Source of the DNA: Chiloscyllium plagiosum
Lineage: Eukaryota
Assembly: GCF_004010195.1 (NCBI RefSeq)
Contig: NC_057719.1
Span: 19,813,189 to 19,863,338 of the forward strand
Reading direction: 5' to 3'
DNA length: 50,150 bases
Part shown: one piece after another, positions 770 through 50,150 of the stretch
Layout of the letters: every line of letters starts with the position of its first letter
Numbering within the stretch: the stretch's first letter is position 1
Notes under the pieces: generated by a model
Told to the model about the DNA's origin: nothing
Seen by the model: only the letters and a program-made list of their open reading frames with translations
Database searches by the model: none
Program-made: the position numbers and the translations under genes

Positions 770-866
770 GAACTGTTCTGAGGAAGGGTCACTCCATCTA
801 AAAGGTTAACTCTGATTTATCTCCACAGATGCTGCCAGATCTGCTGAACTTTTCCAGCAATTTTGT
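770..866 (+). mobile_element. Decayed PLE-type 3' end with degenerate hammerhead motif
   Basis: GTT-CTGAGGA-AGGGTC...GTT-AAC followed by CAGATGCTGCCAGATCTGCTGAACTTTTCCAGCA, the same layout as the PLE 3' end at 47067-47159. Confidence 0.6.
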
Positions 867-899
867 TGGGCTAAAAGCATACCTATTTCATCCACACCA

Positions 900-1920
900 G
901 CCTGTTCCCTGCAAATATATCTGTCCATGACAGTATCAGTGGGAGTGATCATCAGACAGGCTTTGTAGAGACAAAGCCTTTTTCTTCACTTTGAGGATAG
1001 CCTCCCTCATACTGTGTGGAACCATCATCATGCTAAATGGGATAAACTTTGAACAGATTCCATCAGCTCAAGCCTGGGCATTCATGAGGTGCTCTGGTCC
1101 ATCAGCAGCAGTAGACCTGTACTCAAACACAATCTGCAACTTCAAGGCATGGCATATTTTCCAATTAACCACTCCCATCAAATCATGGGATCAATCCTGA
1201 TTCATTGAATGATGCAGGAGAACATTACCACTGGGCACCTCTAAAATGAGGTGTCAACTTGGTGAAGCTACAACCCAGGGCTACTCGTGTGCTAAATATC
1301 ATAAGCAGCAAGTGGTAGACAGAACTAATTGATTCGCCAACTGATAGATCAATTCTAAGCTCTGTAATCCTGCCATGTCCAATTGTAAATAGTGGTGGGC
1401 AATTAAACTCACTGGAGGCAATGGCTCCACAGATATTGTCATTCTCAATGATGGAACAGCCCAGCAGGTCAGTTTTAAAGGTAAGGCTGAAGCATTTGCA
1501 ATAATCTTCAGCCAAAAGCGCTGAATGAATGATCCAAGTTTGCATCCTCCTGAGGTCCCCAGCATTACAGCTGTCAGTTTTCAGTCAATTTGATTCTCTC
1601 CACATGATATCAAGCAACAGTAGGAGGCATTTGATACTGCAAAAGCTGCAGGTCATGACTATATTCTGGCACCTGTGCAGAAGATATGTGCTCCAGAACT
1701 TGCCACACACCTAGACAAGCTGTTCCAAAATTGCATCTACCCTGCCAATGTGTGGAAAGTGGTCCACGTATGTCCTGTCCACAAAAAAAAGGGACAAACC
1801 TAACCCAATCAAAACGTTAATATCAGTAAACCAATTAAAGGTATACTTAATCTTCTTAAGGGCAATTAGGGATGGGCAATAAATATTCTCCCAGCCAACA
1901 AAGGCCACATTCTCTGAAAG
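900..1920 (+). mobile_element. Old non-LTR retrotransposon RT fragment (older 'family B', CR1/L2-like)
   Basis: Frameshifted KAEAFAIIFSQK, CAPELATHLDKLFQ, WKVVHVCPVHKK; 3' motif GGGCAATTAGGGATGGGCAATAAAT has related copies at ~2930 and ~26470 (minus). Confidence 0.7.
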
Positions 1921-1960
1921 AAGAAGAAAAGCCTTTTCCTTCTTCAAATTCCAGCCTTTT

Positions 1961-2585
1961 AGAGTCATAGAGTCATAGAGATGTACAACATGGAAACAGA
2001 CCTTTCGGCCCAACCCGTCCATGCTGACCAGATATCCCAACCCAATCTAGTCCCACCTGCCAGGACCCGGCCCATATCCCTCCAAACCTTTCCTATTCAT
2101 GTACCCATCCAAATGCCTCTTAAATGTTGCAATTGTACCAGCCTCGACCATATCCTCTGGCAGCTTATTCCATACACGTACCACCCTCTGCGTGAAAAAG
2201 TTGCCCCTTAGGTCTCTTTTATATCTTTCCCCTCTCACCCTAAACCTATGCCCTCTAGTTCTGGACTCCCTGATCCCAGGGAAAAGACTTTGCCTATTTA
2301 TCCTATCCATGCCCCTCATAACTTTGTAAACCTCTATAATTTCACCCCTCAGCCTCCGACGCTCCAGGGAAAACAGCCCAACCTGTTCAGACTCTCCCTA
2401 TAGCTCAAATCCCCCAACACTGGCAACATCCTTGTAAATCTTTTCTGAACCCTTTCAAGTTTCACAACATCTTTCTGATAGGAAGGAGATGAGAATTGCA
2501 CGCAATATTCCAACAGTGGCCTAAGCAATGTCCTATACAGCCGCAACATGACCTTGCAATTCCTGTACTCAATACTCTGACCAAT
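1961..2585 (-). mobile_element. CR1 LINE 3' fragment
   Basis: Minus ORFs LYRTLLRPLLEYCVQF and FFTQRVVRVWNKLP; (CTATGACT)n tail at 1961-1980. Confidence 0.93.
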
Positions 2586-2594
2586 ATTTATCCA

Positions 2595-2740
2595 TTTGTG
2601 GCTGTGTCTTCAGCTACCTCACCCTAAGCTCCAGAATTCCCTCTCTAAAATAATTCATGTCTCAACCACTTTCCTCTCTCTTGAAATGTACATTATTGTC
2701 CAAGGTATGGTCACCTTTTCTAATATCTCCTCATGAGGTT
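2595..2740 (+). mobile_element. Possible L2 LINE 3' relic
   Basis: GGCTGTGTCTTCAGCT...CCTAAGCTCCAGAATTCCCTC resembles the L2 'AFS..P.LWNSLP' end; heavily decayed. Confidence 0.4.
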
Positions 2741-3033
2741 TCATAACAAATCTTTGAGGACCAATAGAACAACAAGTCACTCCCTGCCTCAGAGTTCAAA
2801 TCCAACTCCAGAACTTGATAACTGAGGAAAGCATATCCATAACAACAGGTTGGACAACAATTTACGGTACTGTCCAACATAGATTATTTTCAAAACTTGT
2901 TCATGGGTTGGGGCACTGCTAATTAAACCAGCATTTATTGCCCATCGCAGATTCCTACTTCAATTGATTGGTTTGGAACAGCTATTTCAGAGAGAAGATA
3001 CAAGTCAGCTGTATTGCTGTGGGTCTGGAGTCA

Positions 3034-4176
3034 TCATGAAGCTAGTGGACCTGTGCCTCACCACCCACTTCACCTTCAACAACATAATCTACAAACAAAC
3101 CAACGGCACACCCATGGGATCTCTGCTATCAGGATTCATAGCAGAAGCAGTAATGAAAAGACTAGAACAAACAGCCCTGCCAATCATCAAACCAAAAGTC
3201 TGGGTCCGCTACGTAGATGACACCTTTGTCATCACAAAACAAAACAAGATAGAAGAGACATTTAACATCATCAACAACACCCTCACCGGCATAACGTTCA
3301 CCAAGGTGGAAGAAACCGACAACAAACTCGCATTCCTGGATGTCACAGTCGAAAGAAAGGACAACGGAGAACTACAAACCCGCGTATACAGAAAACCGAC
3401 AAACACTGACCAAATACTTAACTACACCAGCAATCATCCCAACACACAGAAATGAAGCGGTATCAGAACACTATTCCAATGAGCCACCACACACTGCAGC
3501 ACAGACGAACTTCAGAAAACAGAGGAGAACCACCTATACAACATATTTGAGAAGAAAGGATACTCAAAAAATACAGTCCGCAGATTCCCCAAGAACAAAC
3601 CACAATGAGCAGACCAAACGCAGCCAGAAACCCTAACCACCTTACCATACATCAAAGAAGTTTCAGAAATGACAGCCAGACTACTAAGACCCCTCGGAAT
3701 CCTAGTAGCACACAAACCCACCAACACTCTCAAACAAAAACTAACAAACTTCAAAGACCCAGTACAACCCATGGACAAAACCAACGTCATCTACAAAATT
3801 CCATGCCACAAACACTACGTAGGACAAATAGGAAGAAAGTTAGCCACCTGGATACACGAACACCAGCTAGCCACAAAAAGACACGACCCTCTCTCCCTCG
3901 TAGCCCTACACACGGATGAAAAAAACCACCAATTCGACTGGGACAACGCATCTATCCTGGGACAAGCTAAGAAAAGACATGCCAGAGAATTCCTAGAGGC
4001 CTGGCACTCCAACTACAACGCAATAAACAAATACATAGATCTAGATACCATCTATCAACTCCTCAGAAAACGAACAAGAAATGACATCACCACAAACCCC
4101 AGGAATCCCATCCAGGACAAACACATAAATAGAAAGCAGGAGACAACAGGTTCGCTTCACTTGGACGTCGCCACTG
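3034..4176 (+). mobile_element. Penelope-like element (Penelope/Poseidon-type), 5'-truncated: RT plus GIY-YIG, disrupted
   Basis: GTPMGS...WVRYVDDTFVI...FLDVTV...VYRKPT (RT) and NVIYKIPC..YVGQ.GR..IHEHQ..REFLEAWH (GIY-YIG); in-frame stops. Confidence 0.93.
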
Positions 4177-4499
4177 TCCTTGACTTCCCTTGTCAGCCAT
4201 CGATTTTGTCTAAATGTTTACAATGGTCATGATTAAGTCAGCTCTTTTATTCCAGATTTTCATTGATTTAAATTTCACTGTTTGCCATGATGTGATTTCA
4301 GATCATCAGTCTGGATCTGCAGGATTACTTGCCATTACACCATCGCCTCCTGAATGTGGCATTGCCAGGTGGTAAGAGCCGGAGAGATTCCTAATCAGCC
4401 ATGCGATAGAAGGAAAATTGAAGCTTCTACTATCACTATGTGTAGCTCCTGACTACAACAGGCATGTAAAAAGTGCAGTTTTTCACAGCAACTCAATCT

Positions 4500-4665
4500 C
4501 ATAGAATACCTACAGTGGGGAGGCTGGCCATTTGGCCCATCAAACCTGCACTGACCCTCTAAAGAGCATCCCATGCAGACCAACCACCCCCTCCCCCAAC
4601 CCTACCCCCATATCCTCCATTTCCCATGGCTAATGCACCTAATTTACACATCCTGGACACTATGT
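4500..4665 (-). mobile_element. HE1-like SINE, 3' part
   Basis: Matches the 3' half of the full copy at 38762-39090 in reverse. Confidence 0.75.
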
Positions 4666-5370
4666 GCAATTTATTTAGAAAATATAGAACTTAGAACAGT
4701 ACAGCAGGGTACAGGCTTTTGGTCCCTGATGTTGTGCTGGCTTTCTGTCCTATTCTAAGATCAGACTAACCTACATACACTTCATTGTACTATCTTCCAT
4801 GTGCCTATCTGAGATGTCCCTAATGTATCTAACTCTACGACCACCGGTGGCAGTACATTCATGCACTCACTACTCTCTGAGTAAAGAACCTACCTCTGAC
4901 ATCTTCTCTAAACTTTTCTCCAATTATCTTAAAAAAAGCCCCCTCATGACAGACATTTCCGCCATGGGAAAAGGTCTCTGGCTATCCACTCTATCTAAGC
5001 CTTTCAACTTCTTGTACATCTCTATCAAGTCACCTCTCATCCTTCTTCACTCCAATGAGAAAAGTCCTAGCTCCCTCAACCTTTCTTCATAAAGGCATGC
5101 CCTCCAGTCTGGGCAGCATCCTGGCAAATCTCCTGTGCATCCTCTTTAAAGCTTCCACATCTTTCCTATAATGAGGCGACCAGAACTGAACACAATATTC
5201 CAAATGTGGTTTAATCAGGACTCTATGGATCTGCAGCATAACCTTGTGGCTCTGAAACTCAATCCCCCCACTAATGAAATCCAACACACCATACACCTTC
5301 TTAACAACCCTATCAACATGGGTGGCAAAGTTGAGGGATCTATGGACATGGACCCCAAGATCCCTCTGTT

Positions 5371-5540
5371 AGATTAGATTTTAGATTACATTACAGTGTG
5401 GAAACAGGCCCTTCGGCCTAACAAGTCCACACCGACCCGCCGAAGTGTAACCCACCCATACCCCTACATTTACCCCTTCACCCAACACCACGGGCAATTT
5501 AACATGGCCAATTCACCTGACCTGCACATCTTTGGACTGT
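5371..5540 (-). mobile_element. HE1-like SINE, 5'-truncated, nested in CR1
   Basis: AATCT-type tail; CTGTT repeated at 5366-5370 and 5537-5541; host CR1 resumes after it. Confidence 0.85.
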
Positions 5541-6649: not shown

Positions 6650-6818
6650 CGAGGTAAAAACATGACTGCAGATGCTGGAAACCAGATTCTGAATCAGTGG
6701 TGCTGGAAGAGCACAGCAATTCAGGCAGCATCCAACGAGCAGCGAAATCGATGTTTCGGGCAAAAGCCCTTCATCAGGAATAAAGGCAGAGAGCCTGAAG
6801 CGTGGAGAGATAAGCTAG
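6650..6818 (-). mobile_element. PLE (Neptune-type) 3' end inserted in CR1
   Basis: Matches 49308-49430 plus an extra ~45 nt tail; host reads CTGTATCCA|GACAGACAGG across it. Confidence 0.85.
6746..6781 (-). ncRNA. Minimal type I hammerhead ribozyme motif (stem III palindrome mutated)
   Basis: AUUC CUGAUGA A GGGC-UUUU-GCCC GAA ACAU C GAUU. Confidence 0.7.
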
Positions 6819-16294: not shown

Positions 16295-17214
16295 NNNNNN
16301 NNNNNNNNNNNNNNNNNNNNNNNNNNNNNNNNNNNNNNNNNNNNNNNNNNNNNNNNNNNNNNNNNNNNNNNNNNNNNNNNNNNNNNNNNNNNNNNNNNNN
16401 NNNNNNNNNNNNNNNNNNNNNNNNNNNNNNNNNNNNNNNNNNNNNNNNNNNNNNNNNNNNNNNNNNNNNNNNNNNNNNNNNNNNNNNNNNNNNNNNNNNN
16501 NNNNNNNNNNNNNNNNNNNNNNNNNNNNNNNNNNNNNNNNNNNNNNNNNNNNNNNNNNNNNNNNNNNNNNNNNNNNNNNNNNNNNNNNNNNNNNNNNNNN
16601 NNNNNNNNNNNNNNNNNNNNNNNNNNNNNNNNNNNNNNNNNNNNNNNNNNNNNNNNNNNNNNNNNNNNNNNNNNNNNNNNNNNNNNNNNNNNNNNNNNNN
16701 NNNNNNNNNNNNNNNNNNNNNNNNNNNNNNNNNNNNNNNNNNNNNNNNNNNNNNNNNNNNNNNNNNNNNNNNNNNNNNNNNNNNNNNNNNNNNNNNNNNN
16801 NNNNNNNNNNNNNNNNNNNNNNNNNNNNNNNNNNNNNNNNNNNNNNNNNNNNNNNNNNNNNNNNNNNNNNNNNNNNNNNNNNNNNNNNNNNNNNNNNNNN
16901 NNNNNNNNNNNNNNNNNNNNNNNNNNNNNNNNNNNNNNNNNNNNNNNNNNNNNNNNNNNNNNNNNNNNNNNNNNNNNNNNNNNNNNNNNNNNNNNNNNNN
17001 NNNNNNNNNNNNNNNNNNNNNNNNNNNNNNNNNNNNNNNNNNNNNNNNNNNNNNNNNNNNNNNNNNNNNNNNNNNNNNNNNNNNNNNNNNNNNNNNNNNN
17101 NNNNNNNNNNNNNNNNNNNNNNNNNNNNNNNNNNNNNNNNNNNNNNNNNNNNNNNNNNNNNNNNNNNNNNNNNNNNNNNNNNNNNNNNNNNNNNNNNNNN
17201 NNNNNNNNNNNNNN
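16295..17214. other. Assembly gap (N run)
   Basis: 920 Ns inside a CR1. Confidence 1.
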
Positions 17215-18050
17215 CAATCCCATTCCTCCGCATTTTGTACAATAGCCTACTGTGGGGAACCTTATCGAACGCCTTGCTGAAATCCATATGCACCACATCA
17301 ACCGGTTTACTCTCATCTACCTGTTTGGTCACCTTCTCAAAGAACTCAATAAGGTTTGTGAGGCACGACCTACCCTTCACAAAACCGTGCTGACTATCCC
17401 TAATCAAATTATTCTTTTCTAGATTATTATAAATCCTATCTCTTATAACCTTTTCCAACACTTTACCAACAACTGAAGTAAGGCTCACTGGTCTATAATT
17501 ACCAGGATTGTCTCTACTCCCCTTCTTGAACAGGGGAACCACAATTGCTATCCTCCAGTCTTCTGGCACTATTCCTGTAGACAATGACAATTTAAAGATC
17601 AATGCCAAAGGCTCGGCAATCTCCTCCCTGGCTTCCCAGAGGATCCTAGGAAAAAATCCCATCCGGCCCAGGGGACTTATCTATTTTCACACTGCAGGAT
17701 TTCTAATACCTCTTCCTTGTGAACCTCAATCACACCTAGTCTAGTAGCCTGTATCTCAGTAATCTCCTCGACAACATTGTCATTTGCTATAGTGAATACT
17801 GTTGAAAAATATTCATTTAGTGCTTCCCCTATCTCCTCTGGCTCCTCAGACAACTTCCCACTACTATCCTTGATTGGCCCTTTTTTTCCTTAAATACCTA
17901 TAGAAAGCCTTAGGGTTTACCCTGATCCTATCCACCAACAACTTCTCATGTCTCCTCCTGGCTCTTCTGAGCTCTCTCTTTAGGTCTTTCCTGGCTACCT
18001 TGTAACCCTCAAGTGCCCTAACTGAGCATTCACAACTCATCCTAACATAA

Positions 18051-18136
18051 TTCGGAGATGCCGGTGTTGGACTGGGGTGTACAATTGGACCCAATTAAAC
18101 CTGTTGGACTATAACCTGGTGTTGTGTGATTTTTAA
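18051..18136. mobile_element. 86 bp PLE-end insertion made of two oppositely oriented pieces, 13 bp TSD
   Basis: CATCCTAACATAA at 18038-18050 and 18137-18149; both pieces match the contiguous end at 47706-47790. Confidence 0.88.
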
Positions 18137-24278: not shown

Positions 24279-24879
24279 GTACCAGTAAACAAAGCTATAA
24301 ATAATCTGGCATTATTCCAACTAGATGGAGAAAATTGAGCCACCACTTGCATTAATTTGGAGAAAATGTTCTGAGAGTGGCTGTTAAAGTATAAAGTTGA
24401 AACAACTGTCTCTCAATGATGAGATGAAAATGTACTACAATATGCTTAGAATTGTAGAGAACTATTTTCTCACTTTGTGTTCATTTTTTTTAGAATGAGT
24501 TTTCCTTATTATGCTTCTTTCAGTCACTGTACCTTACCTATTCATTACTCATCAAGAGGCTTCAGTTACAGTTATCATCAAACGTAGATCAAAGATCTCA
24601 TTGATGCCTATCATTTATGAGTCATGGATAGAATTTATGTGTTCCTCTTTTTGCCTGTGATCAGTCTGCTGGTATAGGAAAGGTATACATTTTCTTACCA
24701 AAACTATCCAAAGGTTTTTGTGGTAAAATTAAGAAAGAATCTCTTATTATCAGACATTTGTTACTCACTCATTTCACACAATCTCTCACAACTTATTGTC
24801 TGGATGCAGATGAAGGTAAAAACAATAGGGTTGCAAAATACAATTATCTCAGTATCTCAAGGAGCTACACCAAAGACTA

Positions 24880-25740
24880 AAACACTTAGTAGAAGACTCG
24901 TGCCAGTCCATTCACTCCACCCAAGAATTCCTGAACACCTTCAAAGATACCAAGATAGAAGAGGATGAAATAATGGTCTCCTTTGATGTAACAGCCCTGT
25001 TCACATCCATTGACATCAACCTGACCAAATAAACAATCCGCTGGTTTTCCTGCAACAAACCCAAACAAGCAGATAAAACGCATCCAAAAACCTTAACCAC
25101 TCTCCCCTACATCAAAGACATCTCGGAAATGACTACCAGACTACTCAGACCCCTTGGCATCGTGGTCGCCCACAAACCCACCAACACACTAAAATAACAG
25201 CTAATGAACTTAAACGACCCTCTCCAGACAACAAGCAAAATGAACGTTGTTTATAACATACCTTGCAAGAACTGCAATAAACACGACATTGGACAAACAG
25301 ACAGAAAACTAGCCAACAGGATACATGAACATCAATTAGCCACAAAAAGACATGACCCACTATCCCTAGTATCCTTACATACAGATGAGGAAGGACACCA
25401 CTTTGACTGGGACAACACATCCAACCGAAGATCAGCCAAACAGAGATACACATGAGAATTGCTAAAAGCATGGCATTCCAATTGGAACTCTATCAACAAA
25501 CACATTGATTTGGACCCCATCTAACACCCTGTAAGAAAAAGAACAGGATATGACATCACCAACACAGGGGGACATTGCATCACCAACTCAGGAAATGACA
25601 TCACCAACCCAAGGAAACCTAAACACATAAATAAAAAGTGGGACATAACACCAGGGCTTCACCAGAGCTCACTCATGATGTCACCTAGTATGGTCTGAAA
25701 AGGAACCTTACAGCTCAGCGAGCAAACTTATATCCAGTAT
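24880..25740 (+). mobile_element. Penelope/Poseidon-type PLE, internally deleted, decayed
   Basis: MVSFDVTALFTSID joined to TLPYIKDISEMT; NVVYNIPCKNC...IHEHQ; broken hammerhead at ~25670-25710. Confidence 0.88.
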
Positions 25741-26459
25741 CTCAGTATGTTTCATGATAGGCCTGTCATTTCTGAGTTAAAGGAGATGCCTTAATGTTGA
25801 AGTGAACATTTACTAAAGGATTCTCAGAGAGATATGAGGTTTCTTGAAATAAAGTTTTCGGAGATTGGTTCACGTGCAAAGTTGAAGTTAGAACAGTTTG
25901 GGTAAATCCTTCTCTTGTTTTCAAGATATTTTCTTTATATTGTTGGTTCTTTGGATGACTTGTATTAGGTGTTAAGGCTTTTGGCTGAATTCTCTATTGT
26001 CTACAAACTATTTCTGCCAGCTTTTGAGAATAGATAACCATTATGGGTCTCTCATCATGTTTACAAGTTCAATGTCCTTTGACCAAAGAGTGATACGTCA
26101 ATTAATTGCAATCAGCCTGTATTGCCATTTAGTGCCTTGTGGTTCACAAAACCTAATTTGAATGAGGGGAACTGCCAAAATACAATGGAAGTTTTAATAG
26201 GATCCTTTCACATTCATCCTAGACAATTGAATTTCAATGTCTCATTTTGTACAGGGTGACACAGAGTGTTAGGTTGACTGGAATTCTATATTCCTTTTGT
26301 ATTATTATGTCCTTGAACACAATTGTCAATTCCCTGGACAGCTGCGAGTGTCCATATTTAAAAAGGTATTCTCTTGTCATTTAGGCATATCTGTTGGACA
26401 AGCAACAAAGGTTGCAGATTTTACAGTGGCCATGACTTTTTCTAGTCACGTACGTATCA

Positions 26460-28110: not shown

Positions 28111-28804
28111 TTATTAGAATTACTTCATTAACATTTATTTAAAATTACTTCTGGCTGGAGCAATTGCAAGTTTGACTGAGACAAAATAAAATATTTAAAA
28201 ATGCAAAGCCACTCAGTCTGGTGTGGAGAGAACTAACAAATCTCCTATGTGTTGGCAATAGGGTGCAAAAAGACAAATTCTCTACAATATCCAAATTCAC
28301 TGAAGTCCACTATTGTTAGGAAGACATTTTAAAAATGATTGTCCTGAAAAGATTCACCTGAAAGGACCTCTTGAAAATATTAGCTGGAATTAATATTGCA
28401 AGGAAGATTGTGAGAGCTTTTGGCACATGGCTGACTTGGAAACTGTTGTCTGCACTTCCCTCTTTCTCTCTCTAAGTGAACCTGGCTCAGTTCTCATGTA
28501 AACAATCAGAGAAAAAGTAGCTGGAGGTGAGAACTTTAAATAATTCCTTCTGCTGACTGAATTCAGAAAACTCACTAACTAACCTTAGTTCTAAGTTAAA
28601 ACCCTTCTAAGACACCCACACGACTTCAAATGGTATTTTCTTTAAATATCTTCTGAGATGGATACTAATCTCTTTTATTTGTGTGTGTGTTGTGTAACTG
28701 CTCAAAAACCACATTCTTGATGCATGTCAGGATTATTTTTCTCAGGGCTGATAATGTGTTGCTGGAAAAGCGCAGCAGGTCAGGCAGCATCCAGGGAACA
28801 GGAG

Positions 28805-28840
28805 AATCGACGTTTCGGGCATAAGCCCTTCTTCAGGATT
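28805..28840 (-). ncRNA. Minimal type I hammerhead ribozyme motif
   Basis: AAUC CUGAAGA A GGGC-UUAU-GCCC GAA ACGU C GAUU; stem I AAUC/GAUU perfect. Confidence 0.8.
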
Positions 28841-28873
28841 CCTGAAGAAGGGCTTATGCCCGAAACGTCGATT
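28838..28873 (+). ncRNA. Minimal type I hammerhead ribozyme motif
   Basis: AUUC CUGAAGA A GGGC-UUAU-GCCC GAA ACGU C GAUU; predicted cut after 28869. Confidence 0.78.
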
Positions 28874-29469
28874 CTCCTGTTCCCTGGATGCTGCCTGACC
28901 TGCTGCGCTTTTCCAGCAACACATTTTCAGCTCTGATCTCCAGCATCTGCAGACCTCACTTTCTCCTCCTTATTTTTCTCAGGGTTAATCGGCAATAGCC
29001 TTGTTTTTTAATTTAAGAAACCTCATGATTAGCTGTTTATTGCCAATAATGAAAATAGATAACTATCTTAGGATTTGAAGGAAGTCTAGTCTTATGCTAA
29101 AAGAGAACTAAACATCTATGCGATCAACTGCGGAGATTTGGATAATTCTTTTCTCATCAGGTTATATCTGTGTATAGATACATTTTTCATGGTAAATTAT
29201 TCTCCACTAACTGAGAGGCCCCTACATCCAAAAAGTATAATCTTTATATTTCATTTTCATAAATGGTGATCTATGGTCACTGTAGGTGTTATTGCTGAGG
29301 AACTTGACTTTACTTTCCAACCCTTCGTCCTCTCTTGTGAACCGCTGGTGTGTTGTGTGCTTTGCCTCTAGCAGGGTATTGTAGCTGATATGTCAGTGCT
29401 TATGCCAGCTCCCATTGCACAAAACAAGACATGTTATGTGGTTCTGACAGATTCAATGAATGTTTATAT

Positions 29470-33094: not shown

Positions 33095-33420
33095 AAAAGT
33101 GGTTTATTGAAATGGTTGGCAGCTGGGAGATCAGGGTCAGTCCTACAGACAGATTGGAGGTGCTGCACAAAGCTGACACCCAGTCTGTGTTGGTCTTGCC
33201 AATGTAAGGAACATGCATTGTGAGTAACGAATGCAGTAGACTAGATTGAAAGAAGGATAGCTTGAATGTTGCTTCAACTGAAAGGTATGTTTTGGGATGT
33301 TGGACATTGAGGAAGCAGGAGGTGAATGGGAAATATTACACCTTCTGCGATTGCACAGGAGGGTGCAATTGAGAAGTGAGGAAACTTTAGGAGTGAGGGA
33401 GGCGTGGATCAGGGTGACCT
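33095..33420 (-). mobile_element. Decayed Neptune-type PLE GIY-YIG fragment
   Basis: Minus strand NLVYCIRYSQC..LYIGKT..RLGVSFVQHL, homologous to 46560-46660. Confidence 0.7.
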
Positions 33421-33940: not shown

Positions 33941-34365
33941 TTGAGTCATACACCACGGAAACAGATCCTTTGATCCAGCCAGTCCATGCCAAACATAATC
34001 CCAAACTAAACTAGTCCCACTTGCCTGGTCCTGGCCCATATCCCTCCAAACATTTCCTGCTTATGTGCTTACCTAAGTGTCTTTTAAACATTCTAACTGT
34101 GCTTGCATCTACCATTTCCTCAGGAAGTTCATTCCACATGTGAACCACCCTCTGTGGAAAACAAATTCCCCTCATATCGTTTTTAAATCTCTCTCCACTC
34201 ACCTTAAAAATGTGCTCCCTCTTCTTGAAATCTCCCATTCAAGGAAAAGACAACTACTTTTAACTCTCTCTATACCACTCATGATTTTATAAACCTCTAT
34301 AAGGTCACCTCTCAAACTTCTGCGCTCCAGGAAAAAAAGTTCCTGTCTATCCAGCCATTTTTTAG
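33941..34365 (-). mobile_element. CR1 3' fragment
   Basis: FPQRVVHMWNELP...FKRHL. Confidence 0.88.
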
Positions 34366-34369
34366 CTTA

Positions 34370-34812
34370 GAATCAGTCTAAACATTATGGCGCACACAGG
34401 GGGCTAACACCTTCAATGTATTATCTGGGCTGACACCAATTGCTGAAAAATGTGTTGCTGGAAAAGTGCAGCAGGTCAGGCAGCATCCAAGGAGCAGGAG
34501 AATTGACGTTTCGGGCATAAGCCGACACCAATTGTTAAAGTTCACTTGAGAATGTAACTTAGAAAAAAAGTTTTGCAATTTACATATGAAAGAAGTGAAA
34601 CTAACATGGTCATTCTAACAGATGAGAGACTTAACAAACAAGGTATTTTTCAATGTATAATTTCTGTTACATCATAATGTAAACTTTTGCGATAAATGCT
34701 GTGTCTTACAATCGTGTACTCCACAACCACCTGATGAAGGAGCAGCGCTCCAAAAGCTAGTGCTTCCAAATAAGCCTGTTGGACTATAACCTGGTGTTGT
34801 GTGATTTTTAAC
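34370..34812 (+). mobile_element. PLE 3' region (second family) with core-mutated hammerhead
   Basis: CAC CUGAUGA A GGAGC-AGC-GCUCC AAA AGCU A GUG at 34728-34762 (G12 is A); ends GTGATTTTTAAC like 18051-18136; absent from the paralog at ~41175. Confidence 0.75.
34443..34523 (-). mobile_element. Single-arm PLE end (same family as the palindromes) nested in another PLE
   Basis: Matches 44310-44389; TSD GACACCAATTG at 34432-34442 and 34524-34534. Confidence 0.88.
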
Positions 34813-34879
34813 CTTATTTTAAACATAGTAGAAAGTACTAATTCACTCATATTCATATCTTGATTTACATCAATGTTCC

Positions 34880-35135: not shown

Positions 35136-36334
35136 AAGACAATCATTTTGCCTTACTGACCACAATTCAGGACAAACACAATCCACAGCAGCTTTCACCA
35201 TATTAGGAAATAACTCATTAACTAATACCAGAGGAAAGAAAGAAACACTAACTATGTGCCTTGAACAATGAATCTTCAAAAACCCAAAGATACACAAACT
35301 CATCCACAAGTGAAACAGTCAACAGACAAGCTATTTGAGACAAATATTATAGTGTAAAATAAAGTCAGGGAATAACAATTTTGAAAATCCAATGTCCAGA
35401 TTGCAAGAGTGGGTGAAATTATTTCTCATATTTCCTTCTGATTTCAGTAGTAATGAAATATCGTTTTCTTTAAAGTAGATGGTCATTTTGATCATTGTTT
35501 CTATGGACCTTGTTCTTTCCATGTATTAGAATTCCTTCTTTCAAGATCTTGGTTTTTTTCTGTCTTTCCACTTAGTGAAAGAGATGGGAGAGAGGTGTTT
35601 TCTGTTTGCCAACTCTCATGGTCTCTGGATGCTCTTACATTTCTGTAACAAATTGCAGCTCAACCAATCCGAGGCCTGATGTCTCGCAGATTTCCTCAAC
35701 TCAAAAACCTCCTGGGCCACTCTGTCTCAAAGTAACAATTTTGCCACTTTGAAAGCAAAATTGTCATGCACGGCTAAACATCTGTATTATTGATTTTCAA
35801 ACTTGCAAAACTTTCCTGGTATTTCACTTCAACTTCCATTCCAGTCTGTTGTCTTCTAAGGAAAAAAAAGGGTACTTTCGACTGTCAACGTCTACTCTGT
35901 TAAATTTCCCCAGTCTTCAAATATCCACTAAATAAAAACCATTTTACTCAATCTCTCCCTAATTCCAGTAAAATGATCTAGTTAACCTTTCTTGACCCTC
36001 TTAGACACGTATATTTTACCATAGGCAATGGCAATAAAACTAAACAATACTTCAAAATTATCAGACCAAAGTCCTCCATTATTGCAGCAAGACTTCATTG
36101 TATACATGAACTTTGTTACAATAATGGCTAATATTCTATCAGCTTTCCTCACTTCTTGTTGCATATTCAGGTAAATTCGGGAAAACCCTATGAATTTCAT
36201 TATCTTTAAAGATCTTTAACACGGTCAAAATAAAACAAAATTACATAGAGCTTATGCAATACGATAATAGAAACAAGTCAATAGCCTGAGTCAAATATGC
36301 TGTGGTTCTGTTCGCCGAGCTGGAAGTTTTTGTT

Positions 36335-36374
36335 GCAAACGTTTCGTCCCCTGTCTAGGTGACATCCTCAGTGC
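36335..36374 (-). ncRNA. Minimal type I hammerhead ribozyme motif (third family)
   Basis: GCA CUGAGGA U GUCACCU-AGAC-AGGGGAC GAA ACGU U UGC. Confidence 0.75.
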
Positions 36375-36668
36375 TTGGGAGCCTCCTGTGAAGTGCTTCT
36401 GTGGTGTTTCCTCCGGCATTTATAGTGGCCTGTCCCTGCCGCTTCCGGTTGTCAGTTTCAGCCGTCCGCTGTAGTGGCCGGTATATTGGGTCCAGGTCTA
36501 TGTGTTTGTTGATGGAGTTTGTGGATGAGTGCCAGGCTTCTAGGAATTCCCTGGCTGTTCTTTGTTTCGCTTGCCCTATAATGGTAGTGTTGTCCCAGTC
36601 AAATTCATGTTGCTTGTCGTCTGCATGTGTGGCTACTAGGGATAGCTGGTCGTGTCATTTCGTGGCTA

Positions 36669-37215
36669 NNNNNNNNNNNNNNNNNNNNNNNNNNNNNNNN
36701 NNNNNNNNNNNNNNNNNNNNNNNNNNNNNNNNNNNNNNNNNNNNNNNNNNNNNNNNNNNNNNNNNNNNNNNNNNNNNNNNNNNNNNNNNNNNNNNNNNNN
36801 NNNNNNNNNNNNNNNNNNNNNNNNNNNNNNNNNNNNNNNNNNNNNNNNNNNNNNNNNNNNNNNNNNNNNNNNNNNNNNNNNNNNNNNNNNNNNNNNNNNN
36901 NNNNNNNNNNNNNNNNNNNNNNNNNNNNNNNNNNNNNNNNNNNNNNNNNNNNNNNNNNNNNNNNNNNNNNNNNNNNNNNNNNNNNNNNNNNNNNNNNNNN
37001 NNNNNNNNNNNNNNNNNNNNNNNNNNNNNNNNNNNNNNNNNNNNNNNNNNNNNNNNNNNNNNNNNNNNNNNNNNNNNNNNNNNNNNNNNNNNNNNNNNNN
37101 NNNNNNNNNNNNNNNNNNNNNNNNNNNNNNNNNNNNNNNNNNNNNNNNNNNNNNNNNNNNNNNNNNNNNNNNNNNNNNNNNNNNNNNNNNNNNNNNNNNN
37201 NNNNNNNNNNNNNNN
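36669..37215. other. Assembly gap (N run)
   Basis: 547 Ns inside a PLE. Confidence 1.
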
Positions 37216-38761
37216 ATGCCGTCTTTGTTGATAGGTTCAGCGTCCTGTTGTCTGTTCTGTATGTCCAGCAGGTTGGCTATTGTTTCTCTGGCTAGGGTTT
37301 TGTCAATAGAGGTGAACAGTGCCGTAAAGTCGAATGAGACCATATTTTCTTCCTTGTCTATGTGTATATTTCTGATGATGTCTAAGAATTCCTGTGTTGA
37401 CTGATTAGAGTGTCTGGATCCGCTGATCAGTTGTTTCAGTTTCTGCTGTATTTCTTTAGCCTGTTTGTGTGATGGTGTCCCTGGTAGTGATACTATGGGT
37501 CTGAGTGGGATGTCTGGTTTGTGCACTTTAGGTAGTCCATAGAATCTGGGGGTGTTGTTGCTTTCAGGTTTCATTCTTTGTAGGTCCGACCTGGTTATCT
37601 GTCCATTTTTTTGTAGGTTCCTCAGTGTGTTGTTTATCATATTGGTGAGCTGTGGGGTGGGGTCAAACTCCCTCTTTTGGTAGGTGTTGGTATCTGCAAG
37701 TCGTTGTTGTGCTTTTTGGATGACCGACATTCTGCCTTTGTCTGCTGGTAGTATGATTATGTTCTTATCGTTTCTTAGTGATTTTAGTGCTTCCCTCTCC
37801 TTGGTGTTGAGATTATGTGTTTGTCTTTGCCTTGTTATCAGGGATACGATACTTTGTCTCACTGTTTGTTGTGTCTCTTCTGTCAGTCCATTGTTCCTGA
37901 GTGTGCATTCTAGTGCTGCTAGGAAGTCTGCTGTCTTGGCGTCCCTGTGGTTGTACTTGAGTCCCTTGGCACACTCTCATTGCTGACTAATCCTCAAAAA
38001 TAATTTAACCTTAGGAGCGCAAGTAATAGAATTGGCAATAAAACAACTCTCCGGGTGGAATTTTGTAAGGTTCTGATTGACCTTGGATATGGTGAGATGT
38101 ATGGAAAAATCAGGTCACAAGTGTGTCGAGACTTATCTCAACGTTAGGACCATTTCACTCCTACCTTATGCTGTTCACAAGCAGTGATGAGAGACTCTCA
38201 CCAGGCAGTGCTGTGATGTCACTTGACAGTCATTATAGATTGTGAAACACCTTGTTAATGCCACAATTTGTCTCATTAATATTTAGACTCCTACCTTACC
38301 AAACTCACCAGAGCAACTATACATTGGTAAAACTCAACAGTGAAACCAGATTAAGGACATGGCACATTCCAGCTGCCACTTGCGAAAGACCTCCGTGTCA
38401 GAAACTGGGCACCAACATCAATAGCATGCTCCATTGGCACCTGCCACACTCAAACCACATCCATGGACATTGGCATCAACTTGTACCAGCTTTGAGAAAC
38501 CGTCATAGGACATCTCTGTTTCACTTACAGGACACTTCTGCACTTCAATGCTATAATGAGTTGCATCAGCAACTATTGTGATGCTGCAAAAAGGACATTA
38601 TGCTCAAAGACACACATCCAGTTGATGGGCTGGACCAGGTTGCAACTCTGGGTTCTTCACTCACTCTCATTGCACTCACTCACTCACTCTGCGCCTAAGT
38701 GGTTGCTCACAGCCTCACTTTGCCTTGCCAATTGTACTTTTCCCCACACCCAGAGCTACTA

Positions 38762-41480: not shown

Positions 41481-41514
41481 TATTACAATGGACATTACAC
41501 TTCTTAAGTGTGTT

Positions 41515-42999: not shown

Positions 43000-44272
43000 G
43001 TTATTTGAAATCAGAACTCTTGAATTTCTTCTTGAATGCCTCAGTTTAACCTGCTTCCATAAAAATTTCAGGCTGTCCATTCCACACCCTAACTGCATGC
43101 TGAGTGAAACAGTATTTTCTTACATTACCCTTGCTTCTTTCATAGATCTCTTCAAAATTAAGCCCTCTTATTATTTGTTTATGAGTTGAAACAGTATCTC
43201 CCAACAGATTCTATCCAACTTGCTCATGATTTTGAAAGTTTCCATCAGATTTCTCAAGAAGCCCCAACTTCTTTAGACTATCCTCATAGCTGAAGTTCCC
43301 TGAACCATTCTTGTAAAATGGTCCTGCACTCTCTCTAATGCATGCACATCTTTCCTATAATGTGGCGCCAATAACTGCACACAGTGTACCAGCAGAGGGC
43401 TAACAATTGTCCACAGAAGTTTAATATCACCTCCGTGCTCTTCCATTCTAAGCCTCTATTACTAAAGTAGAGGACTCTATGTGCTTTACCTACTGCTGTC
43501 TCTGCCAATATTGTCACTTCCAATGACCTGTGCACAAAAACACTGAGGTGTCCCTGCATCTGTAGCCCCCTTAGAATTTTAGCCCTATTTTATTTGTCTT
43601 TCAAAATTCTTCCGCCTCAATGCATCACCTGACACTTCCCTTCTTTAAAACCCATTTGCCACCTATCTGTCCCCAACTTGTCTAAGTTCTTCTCGAGTTC
43701 TACACTGTCTTCCTCACAGTTTACAATGCTTCCAAGTTTTGTGTTATCTACAAAATTTGAAATTTCTTCCTAAATCATTATTATATATCAGAAAAGACAG
43801 AAAACATAACCCAACCCCGGGAGAACTCCATACAAACCTTCCTCCAGCCTGAAAAATATCTATTACACTCTGTTTCCTATCAATACTTGTCAATTTTCTA
43901 TCTATGTTGCATCTAGCCCTATTATTCTCTGACCTATAAATTTCCTTAGAAGTTTGTTATGTGGTGCTGTATCAAATGTCTTATGAAAGTCAAAAACAGA
44001 AATTGCTGGAGGAACTCAGCAGGGCTGTCAACATTTAATGAGAGAAAGCAAAATTAAGATTTCATATCTAGTGACCCTGTTTCAGAACTGTTTCAAACGT
44101 TCAGCATCCGCAGTTCTTTGTTAGAATGTAATGTCTTCTGAAAGCCCATGTGCACCACATCAAAGCATAACGCTCATCAAATCTTTGTGTTACCTCTTCA
44201 AAAAAAAAATCCACCAAGTTAGTTAAAGACAATTTCCTTTTTAGAAATCCATACTGACTCTGTCTAATCAAC
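43000..44272 (-). mobile_element. Decayed CR1 RT region
   Basis: QGHLSVFVHRSL..RGLEWKSTEV; ISNFVDNTKLG; LIRQSQYGF-like motif at the palindrome insertion site. Confidence 0.75.
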
Positions 44273-44497
44273 TAGGAGAAAGTGAGGACTGCAGAGCTGG
44301 AGATCAGAGCTGAAAAATGTGTTGCTGGAAAAGCGCAGCAGGTCAGGCAGCATCCAAGGAGCAGGAGAATCGACGTTTTGGGCATAAGCTCTTCTTCAGA
44401 ATGATTCCTGAAGAAGGGCTTATGCCCGAAACGTCGATTCTCCTGCTCCTTGGATGCTGCCTGACCTGCTGCGCTTTTCCAGCAACACATTTTTCAG
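44273..44497. mobile_element. Second palindromic PLE-derived mini-element (opposite orientation)
   Basis: Arms ~44310-44399 and ~44408-44497 plus tail 44273-44309; TSD CTAATCAAC 44264-44272 / 44504-44512 (15 bp with 2 mismatches: 44258-44272 / 44498-44512). Confidence 0.92.
44404..44439 (+). ncRNA. Minimal type I hammerhead ribozyme motif
   Basis: Identical to 28838-28873; the mirror copy on minus has G12 changed to A and a stem II substitution. Confidence 0.78.
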
Positions 44498-45039
44498 CTC
44501 TCCCTAATCAACCCATCTTTATCCATGTAAGTACTAAGCACATCATACACTCATTGGTAAACTGGAATATTTGTTTTGCTAAGTAGGTTAATGATGCTAA
44601 AGTTGTCAGTCTCATCATGAAACAATCTAAAGCATTTCTATTTAAAAACAGAGGATTTGATTAATCCCATACACAACAATTAAGTTAAAGTACATATTTT
44701 TATTACGGCTCACATTTTTCTGGCAATTTGGCATCTTTATATCTGAACAGAAGGGAAGACAATGACGGGCATATAAAGCAAACAAAGGGTTGTAATAATC
44801 AGGACTTGAATTCTCAAGGTCCACAATACTGAAAGGTTCCTTACTCGCAAATGAAGAAATATTCTGACCTCAAGCAAAGTAAGGTTGGTATCCATACTTA
44901 CTGGCCCATGACATTCAATCCATCAGAAGTCTCAACATTAAAGGAAATAGGGAATAAATAGATTAGGTGTTACTTTGTTGTTTCAGATTTTTCAATTGAA
45001 CAGAAGACTTAAACAACAACAAATGGCACTGTTGTATTA

Positions 45040-46140: not shown

Positions 46141-46419
46141 AAAACACCTGTTTACATGTCTGATGGGCTCACGTTAACAGATGACACGGATCAGTTTTCT
46201 GTACTTAATAAGAACTAATATAACCACAGATAGACAACTATGAACTGTCAATGTATATTTCTACTAATTAGAACTCTAACCACCTTGTAAAACCCCACCA
46301 CACACATACAATTCAAAACGCATAGCCAAAAAAAAAAGTGCTAAGGATGGAAAGAAGGAAGTCACTGGGAAACAATTCAATAGTGCCAGTCCTCAGGATT
46401 CAATAGCCAGGTCCTTTTC

Positions 46420-47159
46420 AACCAACCCAACCTCCACTCCCGGCACCTTCCCTTGCAACCGCAGGAGGTGCAACACTTGCGCCCACACCTCCCCCCTCAC
46501 TTCTCTCCAAGGCCCCAAAGGAAACTTCCATATCCGCCACAGATTCACCTGCACCTCCACCCACATTATCTACTGCATCCGCTGCAGCCGGTGTGGCCTC
46601 CTCTATATTGGGGAGACAGGCCGCCTACTTGCGGAGCGATTCAGAGAGCACCTCTGGGCCACCCGGACGAACCAACCCAATCACCCTGTAGCACAGCATT
46701 TCAACTCCCCCTCCCACTCCACCGAGGATATGCAGGTCATTGGACTCATCCACCGCCAAACCACAACAACGCGACGGTCGGAGGAGGAGCGTCTTATCTT
46801 CCGACTGGGAACCCTCCAACCACAGGGGATGAACTTGGACTTCACCAGTTTCTTCATCCCCCCTCCCCCCACCTTGTCTCAGCCGAATCCCTCCAGCCCG
46901 GCACCGCCTTCCTGACCTGCAGTCTTCTTCTTGACCTCTCCGCCTCCACCCTACTCCGACCTATCACCTTCACCTTGACCTCTTTCCACCTATCACATTT
47001 CCAACGCCCCTCCTCCAAGTCCCTCCTCCCTACCTTTTATCTTCTCCTGCTGAACACTCTCTGCTCATTCCTGAAGAAGGGCATGTGCCCGAAACGTCGA
47101 ATCTTCTGTTCCCTAGATGCTGCCTGACCTGCTGTGCTGTTCCAGCAATAAAGTTTCAG
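46420..47159 (+). mobile_element. Neptune-type PLE, 5'-truncated: open Zn-finger plus GIY-YIG frame and 3' repeat
   Basis: Frame from 46442: GTFPCNRRRCNTCAH..IIYCIRCSRCGLLYIGETGR..RFREH..VAQHF..EERLIFRLGTLQPQGMN; possible TSD CCTTTTC 46413-46419 / 47160-47166. Confidence 0.93.
47067..47102 (+). ncRNA. Minimal type I hammerhead ribozyme motif, all elements intact
   Basis: AUUC CUGAAGA A GGGC-AUGU-GCCC GAA ACGU C GAAU; stem I AUUC/GAAU; predicted cut after 47098. Confidence 0.85.
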
Positions 47160-47197
47160 CCTTTTCTTTCCCAAGCCCTTCAATCCTTTGATGTTTT

Positions 47198-47529
47198 ATA
47201 GAATCCCTATAGTGTGGAAACAGGCTGTTCAGGCCAACAAGTCCACACCAACCCTCCGAAGAGTAATCCATCTAGATCCATTCCCCAACCTATTATTCTA
47301 TATTTACCCCTGACTAATGCACCTAACCCACACATCCCTGAACACTATGGGCAACTTAGTATGGCCAATTCACCTGACCTGAACATCTTTGGACTTTGTG
47401 AGGAAACCAGAGCACCCGGCAGAAACCCACGCAGACACGGGGAGAATGTGCAAACTCCACATAGACACTTGGAATTGAACCTGGGTCCCTGGCGCTGTAA
47501 GGCAGTAGTGCTAACCACCGTGCCGCCCT
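47198..47529 (-). mobile_element. HE1-like SINE, full length
   Basis: Minus strand GGGCGGCACGGTGG head, GGTTCAATTCC B box. Confidence 0.9.
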
Positions 47530-47705
47530 GAATGTTTTCATTCAGGTTCTTTCATATCTTCCCAGGAGGTACAGAGTGATTGATTCACAAATTAAAAATT
47601 CTTTGAAACAAACGCAGGAATTGCTGGAAAAGCACAATGGCTCTAGCCGCATCTGTGGAGAGAAATGGAGGGATGGTGCTTCGGGTCCAAAGTTCATTCC
47701 TCAGA

Positions 47706-47880
47706 ATATGGGGGTGCCAGCGTTGGACTGGGGTGGACAAAGTCAGAAGTCACACGACACCAGGTTATAGTCGAGCAGGTTTATTAGAAATAACAAGTTT
47801 TCGGAGCAGTGCCCCTTCATCAGGTGAAATTATTATTGATCAAAGGCAGTTGTCCAAAAGCTTGTGATTTCTAAGAAACC
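47706..47880 (-). mobile_element. PLE 3' end (second family) with hammerhead motif and a short inverted remnant
   Basis: Minus CAC CUGAUGA A GGGGC-ACU-GCUCC GAA AACU U GUU at 47792-47826; plus-strand TCCAAAAGCTTGTGATTTC at ~47853-47871. Confidence 0.75.
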
Positions 47881-49304
47881 TTCTTCAGAACAGATGGTAG
47901 CGAGGAAAACGTTGTTTTTTATGCAGAAGATAAGGTGGAGGAGGGGTAAGGAGTAAATGGTAGGTGGAGATAGAGCCCAAAGTGGGCAAAGGAGTAGTTA
48001 ATGCATAGTCTAGGAGAATGAAAGCTATTAGTGGACACTTAGTGGCTACTGATGGGTGGTGTGTAATAGCAGACCATGTCATAAGAAGGCCTGGTGTGTT
48101 GGGGCTGGGGTAAGGACTGGGAGAAGATGACTCAAATCCGAAAATTGTTGAACTTGATATTGATGGGGCATCTTGCTGGAGGTGGGATGCCTCCTTCACA
48201 GCTGGACACAACTGGTCACAATTCCACTAACCGATCAGCAACCCCTTGCTGGCTAATTTTCACTTTGTATGCATCTGACGCCATTTCAATTTCCCCCTAG
48301 TCCTGATATTTGCAGTACAACAGTGTAAAAAAATAGCTTGCAATAGCTTTCAGTAACTTGGTTTTTAAAAGTATGACAACTCCTTCATCAGTGGTTGGTG
48401 TAAAACAGCCCTTTTTCCCAATTCAGCCCCCATTCAAAAATAAACCAAAATAAAAATATGCCTTACCCTTACAAGATGAAACATCATTTCAGAACAGTAT
48501 TTCATCACAAGGCATGTGATATAAAACAACAAAACATGAGTTTTATTCTTCCTCCACCCCCCCACCTTGTGCAACATTATATAATCCTAGCATGTCTTAA
48601 ACCTCTAATTTATTCCATTATTTTACATCATGGCAATTTTATATATTGCATTATATATAATTATATATTACATTATCTTTTCCAGTGATATGCATATTTT
48701 TAAATATCAAGTGGTTGAAACAAAGAATCTAGCTGAATAGTCCCAAATTTTGAGTTTTAATTGTTCTAAAGAATGCATTGGGATTATGATAAAGGTGGAC
48801 TCATGTTTCTTTGTTAGAAATAGAATCCAAAATGTTGAAGGCCCGATAATAATACTAAGACACTTTTCTATGATTGTGTATTTCCTTTGATACAATTTAG
48901 TTTCTAAGAGAAGTAGCCCAACAGTTTCTGAGTTCCTGACTCATCATCTAACAAGGCTACATCTACCCCAAATCACGAGCATCAATTGCCACTTTGGAAG
49001 CTCTGGAAAAAAATCAGGGGAACCAATAAAGGTTCATTTATTAGGATTACTTTCAGTCTCTAAAATAACTGCTTAGAATTATGCTGTTTCTTTCAAACAT
49101 TTGTTAAAGGTACAGCTATTGTTTTGAAATTAGGCACAAATCTCCTACACATTCTGACTGACTTGGAAATATATCACCATTCCTTCACTGTTGCTGGGTC
49201 AAATCTGAAGGAAATAAGGGCTATGGGGAGAGTGCGGGTAAGTGGAATTGAAACACTCATCAGCCATGATTAAATGGCAGAGTGGACTCGAAGGGCTGAA
49301 TGGA

Positions 49305-50150
49305 TTCGTGGTGCTGGAAGAGCACAGCAGTTCAGGCAGCATCCAAGGAGCTTCGAAATCGACGTTTCGGGCAAAAGCCCTTCATCAGGTATAAAGGCAG
49401 TGAGCCTGGAGCGTGGAGAGATAAGCTAGAGGAGGGTGGGGGTATGGAGAAAGTAGCATAGAGTACAATAGGTGAGTGGGAGAGGGGATGAAGGTGATAG
49501 GTCAGGGAGAAGAGGGTGGAGTGGATAGGTGGAAAAGGAGATAGGCAGGTAGGACAAGTCCGGACAAGTCATGGGGACAGTGCTAAGCTGGAAGCTTAGA
49601 ACGAGGGTAAGGTGGGGGAAGGGGAAATGAGGAAACTGTTGAAGTCCACATTGACGCCCTGGGGTTGAAGTGTTCCGAGGCGGAAGATGAGGCGTTCTTC
49701 CTCCAGGTGTCTGGTGGTGAGGGAGCGGCGGTGAAGGAGGCCCAGGACCTCCATGTCCTCGGCAGAGTAGGAGGGGGAGTTGAAATGTTGGGCCACGGGG
49801 CGGTGGGGTTGATTGGTGCGGGTGTCCCGGAGATGTTCCCTAAAGCGCTCTGCAAGGAGGCGCCTAGTCTCCCCAATGTAGAGGAGACCGCATTGGGAGC
49901 AACGGATACAATAAATGATATTCGTGGATGTGCAAGTAAAACTTTGATGGATATGGAAGGCTCCTATAGAGCCTTGGATAGAGGTGAGGGAGGAGGTGTG
50001 GGCGCAGGTTTTACAGTTCCTGCGGTGGCAGGGGAAGGTGCCAGGATGGGAGGGTGGGTTGTAGGGGGGCGTAGACCTGACCAGGAAGTCACGGAGGGAA
50101 CAGTCTTTGCGGAAGGCGGAAAGGGGTGGGGAGGGAAATATATCCCTGGT
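49305..50150 (-). mobile_element. Neptune-type PLE running off the window end
   Basis: SLRDFLVRS..GTFPCHRRNCKTCAH..LYIGET..AQHFNS..EERLIFRLGTLQPQGVN. Confidence 0.93.
49357..49392 (-). ncRNA. Minimal type I hammerhead ribozyme motif (weak stem I)
   Basis: AUAC CUGAUGA A GGGC-UUUU-GCCC GAA ACGU C GAUU. Confidence 0.72.

What the first reader, a model, noticed from the sequence alone, without database searches (positions are those of the whole stretch)
775..49392. Four PLE families in one window show covarying minimal hammerheads with palindromic stem III
Seen: motifs at 775, 6746, 28805/28838, 34728, 36335, 44404, 47067, 47792 and 49357. The core CUGAnGA+1 nt...GAA is shared while helices differ yet pair: stem I AUUC/GAAU, CAC/GUG, GCA/UGC, GUU/AAC; stem II GGGC/GCCC, GGAGC/GCUCC, GUCACCU/AGGGGAC; stem III ACGU or AGCU, both self-complementary. 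Known: minimal PLE hammerheads are thought to cleave as dimers via the palindromic stem III. Inference: about ten motifs in 50 kb implies a very large genomic ribozyme load; ACGU-type families might cross-dimerise, and host pre-mRNAs crossing them might be cut.
Basis: partly seen in the sequence, partly recalled or inferred. Interest (0 to 1): 0.72.

Follow-up and report, generated by a model that had tools for sequence, protein, structure and literature searches.

The report
Fossil Penelope hammerheads, huge neutral load
The ten tiny self-cutting-RNA motifs are real and belong to four families of Penelope-like jumping genes, a pairing already known; this genome holds about 190,000 such motifs that decay like neutral DNA, and their ends suggest most were likely copied from an uncut RNA that begins right at the ribozyme.

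Summary
All ten motifs are present, far above chance. They are minimal type I hammerheads in the terminal repeats of four Penelope-like (PLE) families: three Neptune-like (A, B, D) and one Poseidon-like (C). This pairing is published (PMC4209133). Helices differ between families and still pair. Four of ten motifs have broken cores or palindromes, three sit in 94-97-bp hairpins, one has lost stem I; only 47067 and 36335 are intact and free.

The load is large: 130,619 + 48,431 + 3,936 core-intact motifs, plus 6,955 family-C half-motifs. It looks neutral: the core-breaking G12A (6,441) equals the pair-keeping change at the same CpG (6,396).

The proposed 47067 x 36335 heterodimer is predicted to fail, because stem I is intermolecular in a dimer and gives 0 pairs.

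The more useful signal is that 70 of 117 young family-A copies start within -8..+10 of the core, with a sharp edge at an initiator-like A and an excess of extra G; only 2 of 117 start at the cleavage site. This suggests uncleaved, capped RNA starting at the ribozyme is the template. The scan noted this reading before, in this and other genomes.

The parts
775..867 (+). Family D (Neptune-like, old) stub; hammerhead 775-810 broken (G12A, stem III AGGU)
6653..6813 (-). Family A2 stub with tail; hammerhead 6781-6746, palindrome broken (ACAU)
28748..28969 (.). Head-to-head A1 pair (97-nt arms, tail on right arm, 15-bp TSD 28733-28747/28970-28984); two core-intact hammerheads (C3 at 28836 minus, 28842 plus) predicted locked in one hairpin
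34356..34815 (+). Family B (second Neptune-like family) 3' piece; hammerhead 34728-34762 with G12A
34442..34523 (-).
36298..37976 (-). Family C (Poseidon-like) truncated element across an N gap; intact hammerhead 36374-36335; ATG at 36365 overlaps the start of stem II
44273..44503 (.). Head-to-head A1 pair (94-nt arms, tail on left arm, 9-bp TSD 44264-44272/44504-44512); plus-arm hammerhead core intact (C3 44408), minus arm G12A
46412..47163 (+). Family A3 5'-truncated element (start approximate): CX4CX2C linker, GIY-YIG endonuclease, 3' UTR; intact free hammerhead 47067-47102, predicted cut after 47098
47715..47826 (-). Family B stub starting at the hammerhead edge; palindrome broken (AACU)
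49308..50150 (-). Family A2 element running off the window: GIY-YIG endonuclease, 3' UTR; hammerhead core intact (C3 49388) but stem I reduced to 1 pair
43993..44090 (-). Further decayed family D stub (others near 47605-47706 and 47879-48200)

Best explanation
These are the minimal type I hammerheads of four Penelope-like retrotransposon families, left as neutrally decaying insertion stubs that were likely reverse-transcribed from uncleaved, capped element RNA that likely starts at the ribozyme's first base. Shown: motif anatomy, PLE linkage, copy numbers, end positions, equal CpG decay. Inferred for families A, B, D: transcription starts a few bases before the core (an initiator-like A at -4 in A and D; for A1 the ORF ATG is at +162). 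Reverse transcription starts inside the RNA at about +90 or +125, as shown in vitro for the anole element. It runs off the 5' end after 90-130 nt and often restarts, giving head-to-head or partial-tandem copies. The ribozyme is predicted to act only in source-element RNA, where the leader copy and the 3' pLTR copy pair through stems III and I, probably helped by the PLE protein; a cut would remove the capped first 32 nt. Dispersed copies are predicted to be mostly inert.
For: 5' ends of 117 young A copies in the unbiased sample: 70 at -8..+10 (3.7 per nt), 0.11 per nt at -73..-13, 0.46 per nt at +11..+66; 2 at +28, 8 at +25..+31. 3' ends: 36 at +85..95 and 53 at +120..127. B: 14 of 30 loci start at -12..-1. 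D: 26 of 30 at -6..0; both sets were chosen for an intact core. In 19 partial tandems scored, 6 of 14 measurable downstream units start at -4..-6. Extra G at -5 in 12 of 19 non-native A1/A3 junctions, 27% expected, p about 0.001. RNA-read loose ends reproduce +125 (338 reads), +85 (104), -4 (102), +5 (91). G12A 6,441 vs C11.1U 6,396 against 68,925 intact. [quoted passage not shown]
Against: No cleavage or transcription start was measured. Family C has no edge peak: 2 of 30 at -7..-2, 25 of 30 at -57 or further, and none at the start near -37 that I predicted from its TATA-like box. Extra G is absent in A2 (1 of 5) and common at other starts (6 of 15 at -2, 5 of 10 at -1); several G cases are microhomology at inverted junctions. 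A small peak does sit at the cut site: 5 of 24 truncated loci at +28; by eye about 14 of 79 in the listing, but about 12 at +33, where there is no cut. In D. virilis Penelope the start lies upstream, 46 nt before an intron whose end abuts helix I. Equal CpG counts could hide context effects: the ACGU CpG is uneven, 7,922 vs 9,897.
Confidence: 0.72

Rival explanations
1. Same identity, but the 5' edge is set by the PLE endonuclease or by resolution of the integration intermediate, not by the RNA start.
For: [quoted passage not shown] Tails and inverted pLTRs are attributed to endonuclease resolution.
Against: B (CAC) and D (AGTT) have the same edge peak without ATT. The same edge recurs at internal jump points of partial tandems. 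An extra G fits a cap better.
Confidence: 0.15
2. One reading: the dispersed copies are an active ribozyme load that dimerises, also across families, and cuts host pre-mRNAs.
For: About 190,000 motifs by pattern. 37 of 322 A/B/C copies in 1.17 Mb have core, stem II and stem I and no inverted partner. Copies are transcribed inside host RNA in both orientations. A subfamilies are mutually compatible.
Against: A x C and C x D give 0 stem I pairs; A x B gives 1 pair and a mismatched stem III. No excess or deficit of G12A. Published minimal hammerheads are inactive as monomers and weak as dimers; 8 of 9 Xenopus retrozyme dimers did not cleave.
Confidence: 0.08
3. The short and palindromic copies are a self-propagating non-autonomous element (retrozyme- or SINE-like) spreading through cleaved, circular RNA.
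For: Very high copy number and regular 90-130-nt size. Animal retrozymes derive from pLTRs.
Against: Copies keep the sequence 5' of the cut instead of starting at it; inversion junctions differ from copy to copy; no head-to-tail array of the motif in the window.
Confidence: 0.05

Closest known systems
Minimal hammerheads (min-HHR) in pLTRs of metazoan PLEs (Cervera and De la Pena 2014, PMC4209133; parts 1-2 of 4 read)
   Same: Type I core, extra nucleotide between 9 and 10.1, G10.1-C11.1 pair, palindromic 15.2-16.2, short helix I, several covarying families per genome, mostly solo copies, some close pairs on opposite strands; found in Poseidon and Neptune of fishes.
   Different: Counts reported there are about 4,000 (coelacanth) and 9,000 (Xenopus) by a structure descriptor; here about 190,000 by patterns (methods differ). 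Helix II is 4-5 bp in A, B, D. No shark is named in the parts read; supplements not read.
Poseidon element of Anolis, PAc (Frangieh et al. 2024, PMC11167929; parts 1-2 of 4 read)
   Same: Family C has its ATG at the start of stem II. All families show two 3' ends 30-40 nt apart, the two RT starts. Uncleaved RNA as template.
   Different: A 5'-end peak at the ribozyme edge is not described in the text read (Fig. S2 not seen). In family A1 the ATG is 162 nt downstream of the core.
EN+ PLE insertion structure: inverted pLTR, one-sided tail, variable TSD (PMC3846280, PMC8557442; passages read)
   Same: Head-to-head arms, tail on one arm only, 9-15-bp TSDs, partial tandems.
   Different: Here most insertions are reduced to the hammerhead and tail alone.
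Animal non-LTR retrozymes (bioRxiv 10.64898/2026.07.22.740005; parts 1-3 of 5 read)
   Same: pLTR-derived, non-coding, hammerhead-bearing; one cartilaginous fish in their sample.
   Different: Defined as head-to-tail tandem arrays; these copies are dispersed, solo or head-to-head.

Membership tests
Minimal type I hammerhead of PLEs | CUGANGA...GAAA..UH core with helix I open | tested here: met
   6 of 10 window motifs; genome counts with controls
Minimal type I hammerhead of PLEs | Extra base between 9 and 10.1; G10.1-C11.1 pair | tested here: met
   One extra base in all four families; first stem II pair mostly G-C or G-U (A 118 of 125, B 56 of 61, C 28 of 30, D 20 of 31)
Minimal type I hammerhead of PLEs | Palindromic stem III without loop | tested here: met
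   ACGU 64 and AGCU 28 of 158 core-only hits; next commonest ACAU 29 and AUGU 16 are CpG products
Minimal type I hammerhead of PLEs | Compensatory change in helices I and II | tested here: met
   Stem I pair 1: CG, CG, AU, UA; pair 2: UA, AU, CG, UA; stem II pair 3: GC, AU, CG, GC in A, B, C, D. Only four lineages; no R-scape test; the MAFFT alignment misplaced family B
Minimal type I hammerhead of PLEs | Self-cleavage as a dimer | not testable with these tools
   Only compatibility was computed
EN+ PLE | C-terminal GIY-YIG endonuclease with two Cys between the motifs, upstream of the hammerhead | tested here: met
   Pfam GIY-YIG on A2 (above cut-off) and A3 (22.5 vs 22.6 bits); B, C, D by tblastn and translation
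EN+ PLE | 30-40-nt tail, inverted or tandem pLTRs, variable TSD | tested here: met
EN+ PLE | RT phylogeny sister to telomerase; full-length ORF | not tested
   No full-length copy retrieved, no tree built
Neptune clade (A, B, D) | CX2-5CxxC linker before the endonuclease | tested here: met
   A: CX4CX2C; B: CX4CX2C in L246; D only degraded (L272). Nematis not separated by a tree
Penelope/Poseidon clade (C) | No linker zinc finger; ORF starts inside the hammerhead | tested here: inconclusive
   ATG at stem II start with a frame open through the tail; linker region lies in the N gap, but the 56% identical relative at 3609 lacks it
Non-LTR retrozyme | Head-to-tail tandem units each with a hammerhead | tested here: not met
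   No such array in the window; sampled copies are solo, head-to-head or short partial tandems

The most novel reading that the evidence does not exclude
In Neptune-like PLEs of this genome the hammerhead is the capped first 32 nt of the transcript. Reverse transcription primed 90-125 nt downstream runs off that cap, so more than 100,000 genomic stubs record in vivo that uncleaved RNA is the template. Cleavage would then be a protein-assisted decapping switch, not a step in making the template, and stem I would act as a family-specific code that stops families sharing ACGU from cutting each other.
Probability: 0.55. Interest if true: 0.6.

Novelty: new member of a known kind. Interest (0 to 1): 0.36.

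Why it matters
The role of the hammerhead in endonuclease-bearing PLEs is called unclear in PMC8557442. A genome with over 100,000 young copies gives statistics that small families cannot: where cDNAs end, whether cleaved RNA is ever used, and whether the host selects on ribozyme activity (no sign of it). It also shows that raw motif counts overstate the active load. The motif class itself is not new.

Tried and rejected
Rfam scan: no hammerhead model hit; the five hits are hairpin look-alikes below their cut-offs.

Monomer folding: no hammerhead fold and no stability above shuffles (z 0.44 and 0.45), as expected without a stem III loop.

MAFFT alignment across families put family B out of register, so no tool-based pair count was run on it; pairs were counted by parsing instead. 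Dimer energies are dominated by stem II and were not used.

An apparent deficit of G12A in the sample, which I read as selection, vanished genome-wide.

A predicted start near -37 for family C was not seen (0 of 30).

A 3' splice-site-like stretch at about +55..+75 showed no GT-AG joint among the listed joints (42 more not shown).

No RNA holder on record was listed for the stretch; run X21 laid 0 reads. Whether this window lies in a transcribed gene stays open.

Lunse et al. 2017 could not be read and is known here only through a review passage.

Searches for a shark hammerhead count or a start site at the ribozyme listed no paper on it; subscription papers and supplements were not seen.
Full report
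Setting. The window is G000:C10:19813189-19863338 of a 3.56-Gb genome. It is rich in LINE-like and PLE fragments. Earlier scan notes call the genome a shark; I did not test that. Positions below are relative to C3 of the hammerhead core (= 0); the predicted cut lies between +27 and +28 in family A.

Observation. All ten motifs are there. A strict descriptor finds 3 in the window and 0 in 20 shuffles. Six have an intact core and palindrome (C3 at 28836, 28842, 36371, 44408, 47071, 49388). Four are broken: 775, 6746, 34728, 47792. Of the six, three are arms of inverted insertions with TSDs; the 28748-28969 pair folds into a single hairpin (-204 kcal/mol, z -27.7). One has one stem I pair left. 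So only 47067 and 36335 are intact and free, and they are on opposite strands.

Families. A (subfamilies A1, A2, A3) follows a GIY-YIG domain with a CX4CX2C linker. B follows a different endonuclease, about 33% identical, with the same linker. D follows a degraded Neptune-like C-terminus. [quoted passage not shown] Linker definitions are from PMC8557442. Motifs were collected by core pattern without asking for helices, and the helices pair anyway, with different pair types per family (125 A, 61 B, 30 C, 31 D motifs). With four lineages this is clear by inspection but is not a formal covariation test. Most A copies have U-U at the third pair of stem I (81 of 125).

Load. Exact counts on both strands, with reversed-pattern controls: 130,619 (control 112), 48,431 (11), 3,936 (103), and 6,955 for the 3' half of C (0). 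These patterns do not require helices I and II. In 120 stretches of 10 kb (1,167,970 non-N bases) there are 400 hammerhead-region copies including decayed ones. 75 motifs have core, palindrome and stem II (64 per Mb). Of 322 A/B/C copies scored, 58 also have stem I and 37 of these lack an inverted partner. Published counts are about 4,000 and 9,000 for coelacanth and Xenopus, by another method.

Selection. G12 and the palindrome lie in CpGs. In A1, CpG positions differ from the majority base in 8-23% of 49 copies; most other invariant positions differ in 0-10%. At one CpG, C11.1U keeps a G-U pair and G12A removes the general base (role of G12). Genome-wide they number 6,396 and 6,441, so there is no sign of selection for or against activity after insertion. 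The second CpG is uneven (7,922 vs 9,897), so context effects of about 25% exist, and selection on a genic minority is not excluded.

Cross-dimers. If U16.1 and the cleaved base come from the partner strand, so does the 3' arm of stem I; this follows from topology and from the double-hammerhead model (Forster 1988, recalled; legend seen). For six natural motifs: A x A gives 3-5 pairs each way; A x C 0 and 0; C x D 0 and 0; A x B 1 and 1 with 2 of 4 stem III pairs; D on A 3-4 pairs with wobbles, one way only. The proposed 47067 x 36335 test is therefore predicted to be negative.

Ends of copies. I scored 117 A copies at 88% identity or more, with no N at the junction, out of 226 A copies in the sample. 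70 start at -8..+10 with a sharp left edge near -5/-4; 16 extend beyond -12; 8 start at +25..+31, 2 of them at +28. 89 end at one of two sites, +85..95 or +120..127. 67 of the 117 have an inverted partner. B and D show the same edge (14 of 30 and 26 of 30, chosen for an intact core); C does not. In partial tandems the downstream unit often restarts at -4..-6 behind a random point in the ORF 5' end (6 of 14 measurable). The A at -4 sits in an initiator-like context in A and D (consensus recalled). B has a TATA-like box about 30 nt before -8. A minor peak at +28 exists among 6,456 copies lacking GAA at +20..22: 5 of 24 truncated loci by script, about 14 of 79 by eye, against about 12 at +33. CpG decay and fold-back through stem I can both mimic it, so it is not proof of cleavage.

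RNA. In one poly(A) single-cell run listed under the same species label as the best DNA holders, 2,942 of 12,955,460 records laid on an A1 partial tandem. 94% ran on into unlike sequence. Depth was several hundred over hammerhead and tail but about 3-21 over the ORF 5' piece. Loose ends matched the genomic breakpoints, and no start or end pile-up was listed at the cut site (900 rows not shown). So the copies are mostly read through in host RNA, in both orientations. Such a library cannot show cyclic-phosphate ends.

Mechanism. Most likely the element RNA starts at the ribozyme, is copied uncleaved from internal start sites, and yields short stubs that often invert or jump. Cleavage needs two compatible copies, as in a tandem source transcript, and probably the PLE protein. 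The main rival for the edge is endonuclease cutting at ATT.

Comparison and verdict. Five searches listed no paper with shark counts or a start site at the ribozyme; supplements and figures were not seen and may bear on both. The scan has reached the stub and start-site readings before, on this and other genomes; my start-site note predates those look-ups, and the notes are not independent evidence. New member of a known kind; interest 0.36.

Noticed in passing
window 2883-4170 (+) and 24859-25760 (+): A fifth, Poseidon-like PLE family (RT and endonuclease fragments). Its hammerhead is cut off at about 4170 and decayed near 25680; more complete motifs occur in sample loci L123, L038, L055, L117.
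   Followed up: partly
family A, about +55..+75 from the core (e.g. window 28897-28918): Branch-point-like, pyrimidine-rich stretch ending in CAG resembles a 3' splice site (consensus recalled); sense copies in introns could be exonised. No spliced joint seen.
   Followed up: partly
family A, about -36..-29 (e.g. window 47035-47042): A TTATCT hexamer is kept in A1, A2 and A3 about 30 nt before the inferred start while its flanks differ; possible TATA-position element.
   Followed up: no
L182, L184, L189-L191, L199: Partial tandems join a hammerhead-first unit to random points 100-400 nt into the ORF 5' end, suggesting RT template jumps; they gave the A1 start codon at +162.
   Followed up: partly
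window 18069-18136: Small scrambled family B fragment with arms in both orientations, lacking the core.
   Followed up: no
window 33100-33364 (-): Old Neptune-like endonuclease remnant.
   Followed up: no
window 4502, 5383, 23935, 26916, 27826, 41523, 47199 (repeat family D1) and 24219, 27138, 41735, 47470 (D20): Abundant LINE/SINE-like repeats; several ORFs look like CR1/L2-type LINE pieces (label recalled; Exo_endo_phos hit at 21859).
   Followed up: no
window about 16295-17215 and 36669-37231: Two runs of N (1,467 bases in all) interrupt a LINE and the family C element.
   Followed up: no
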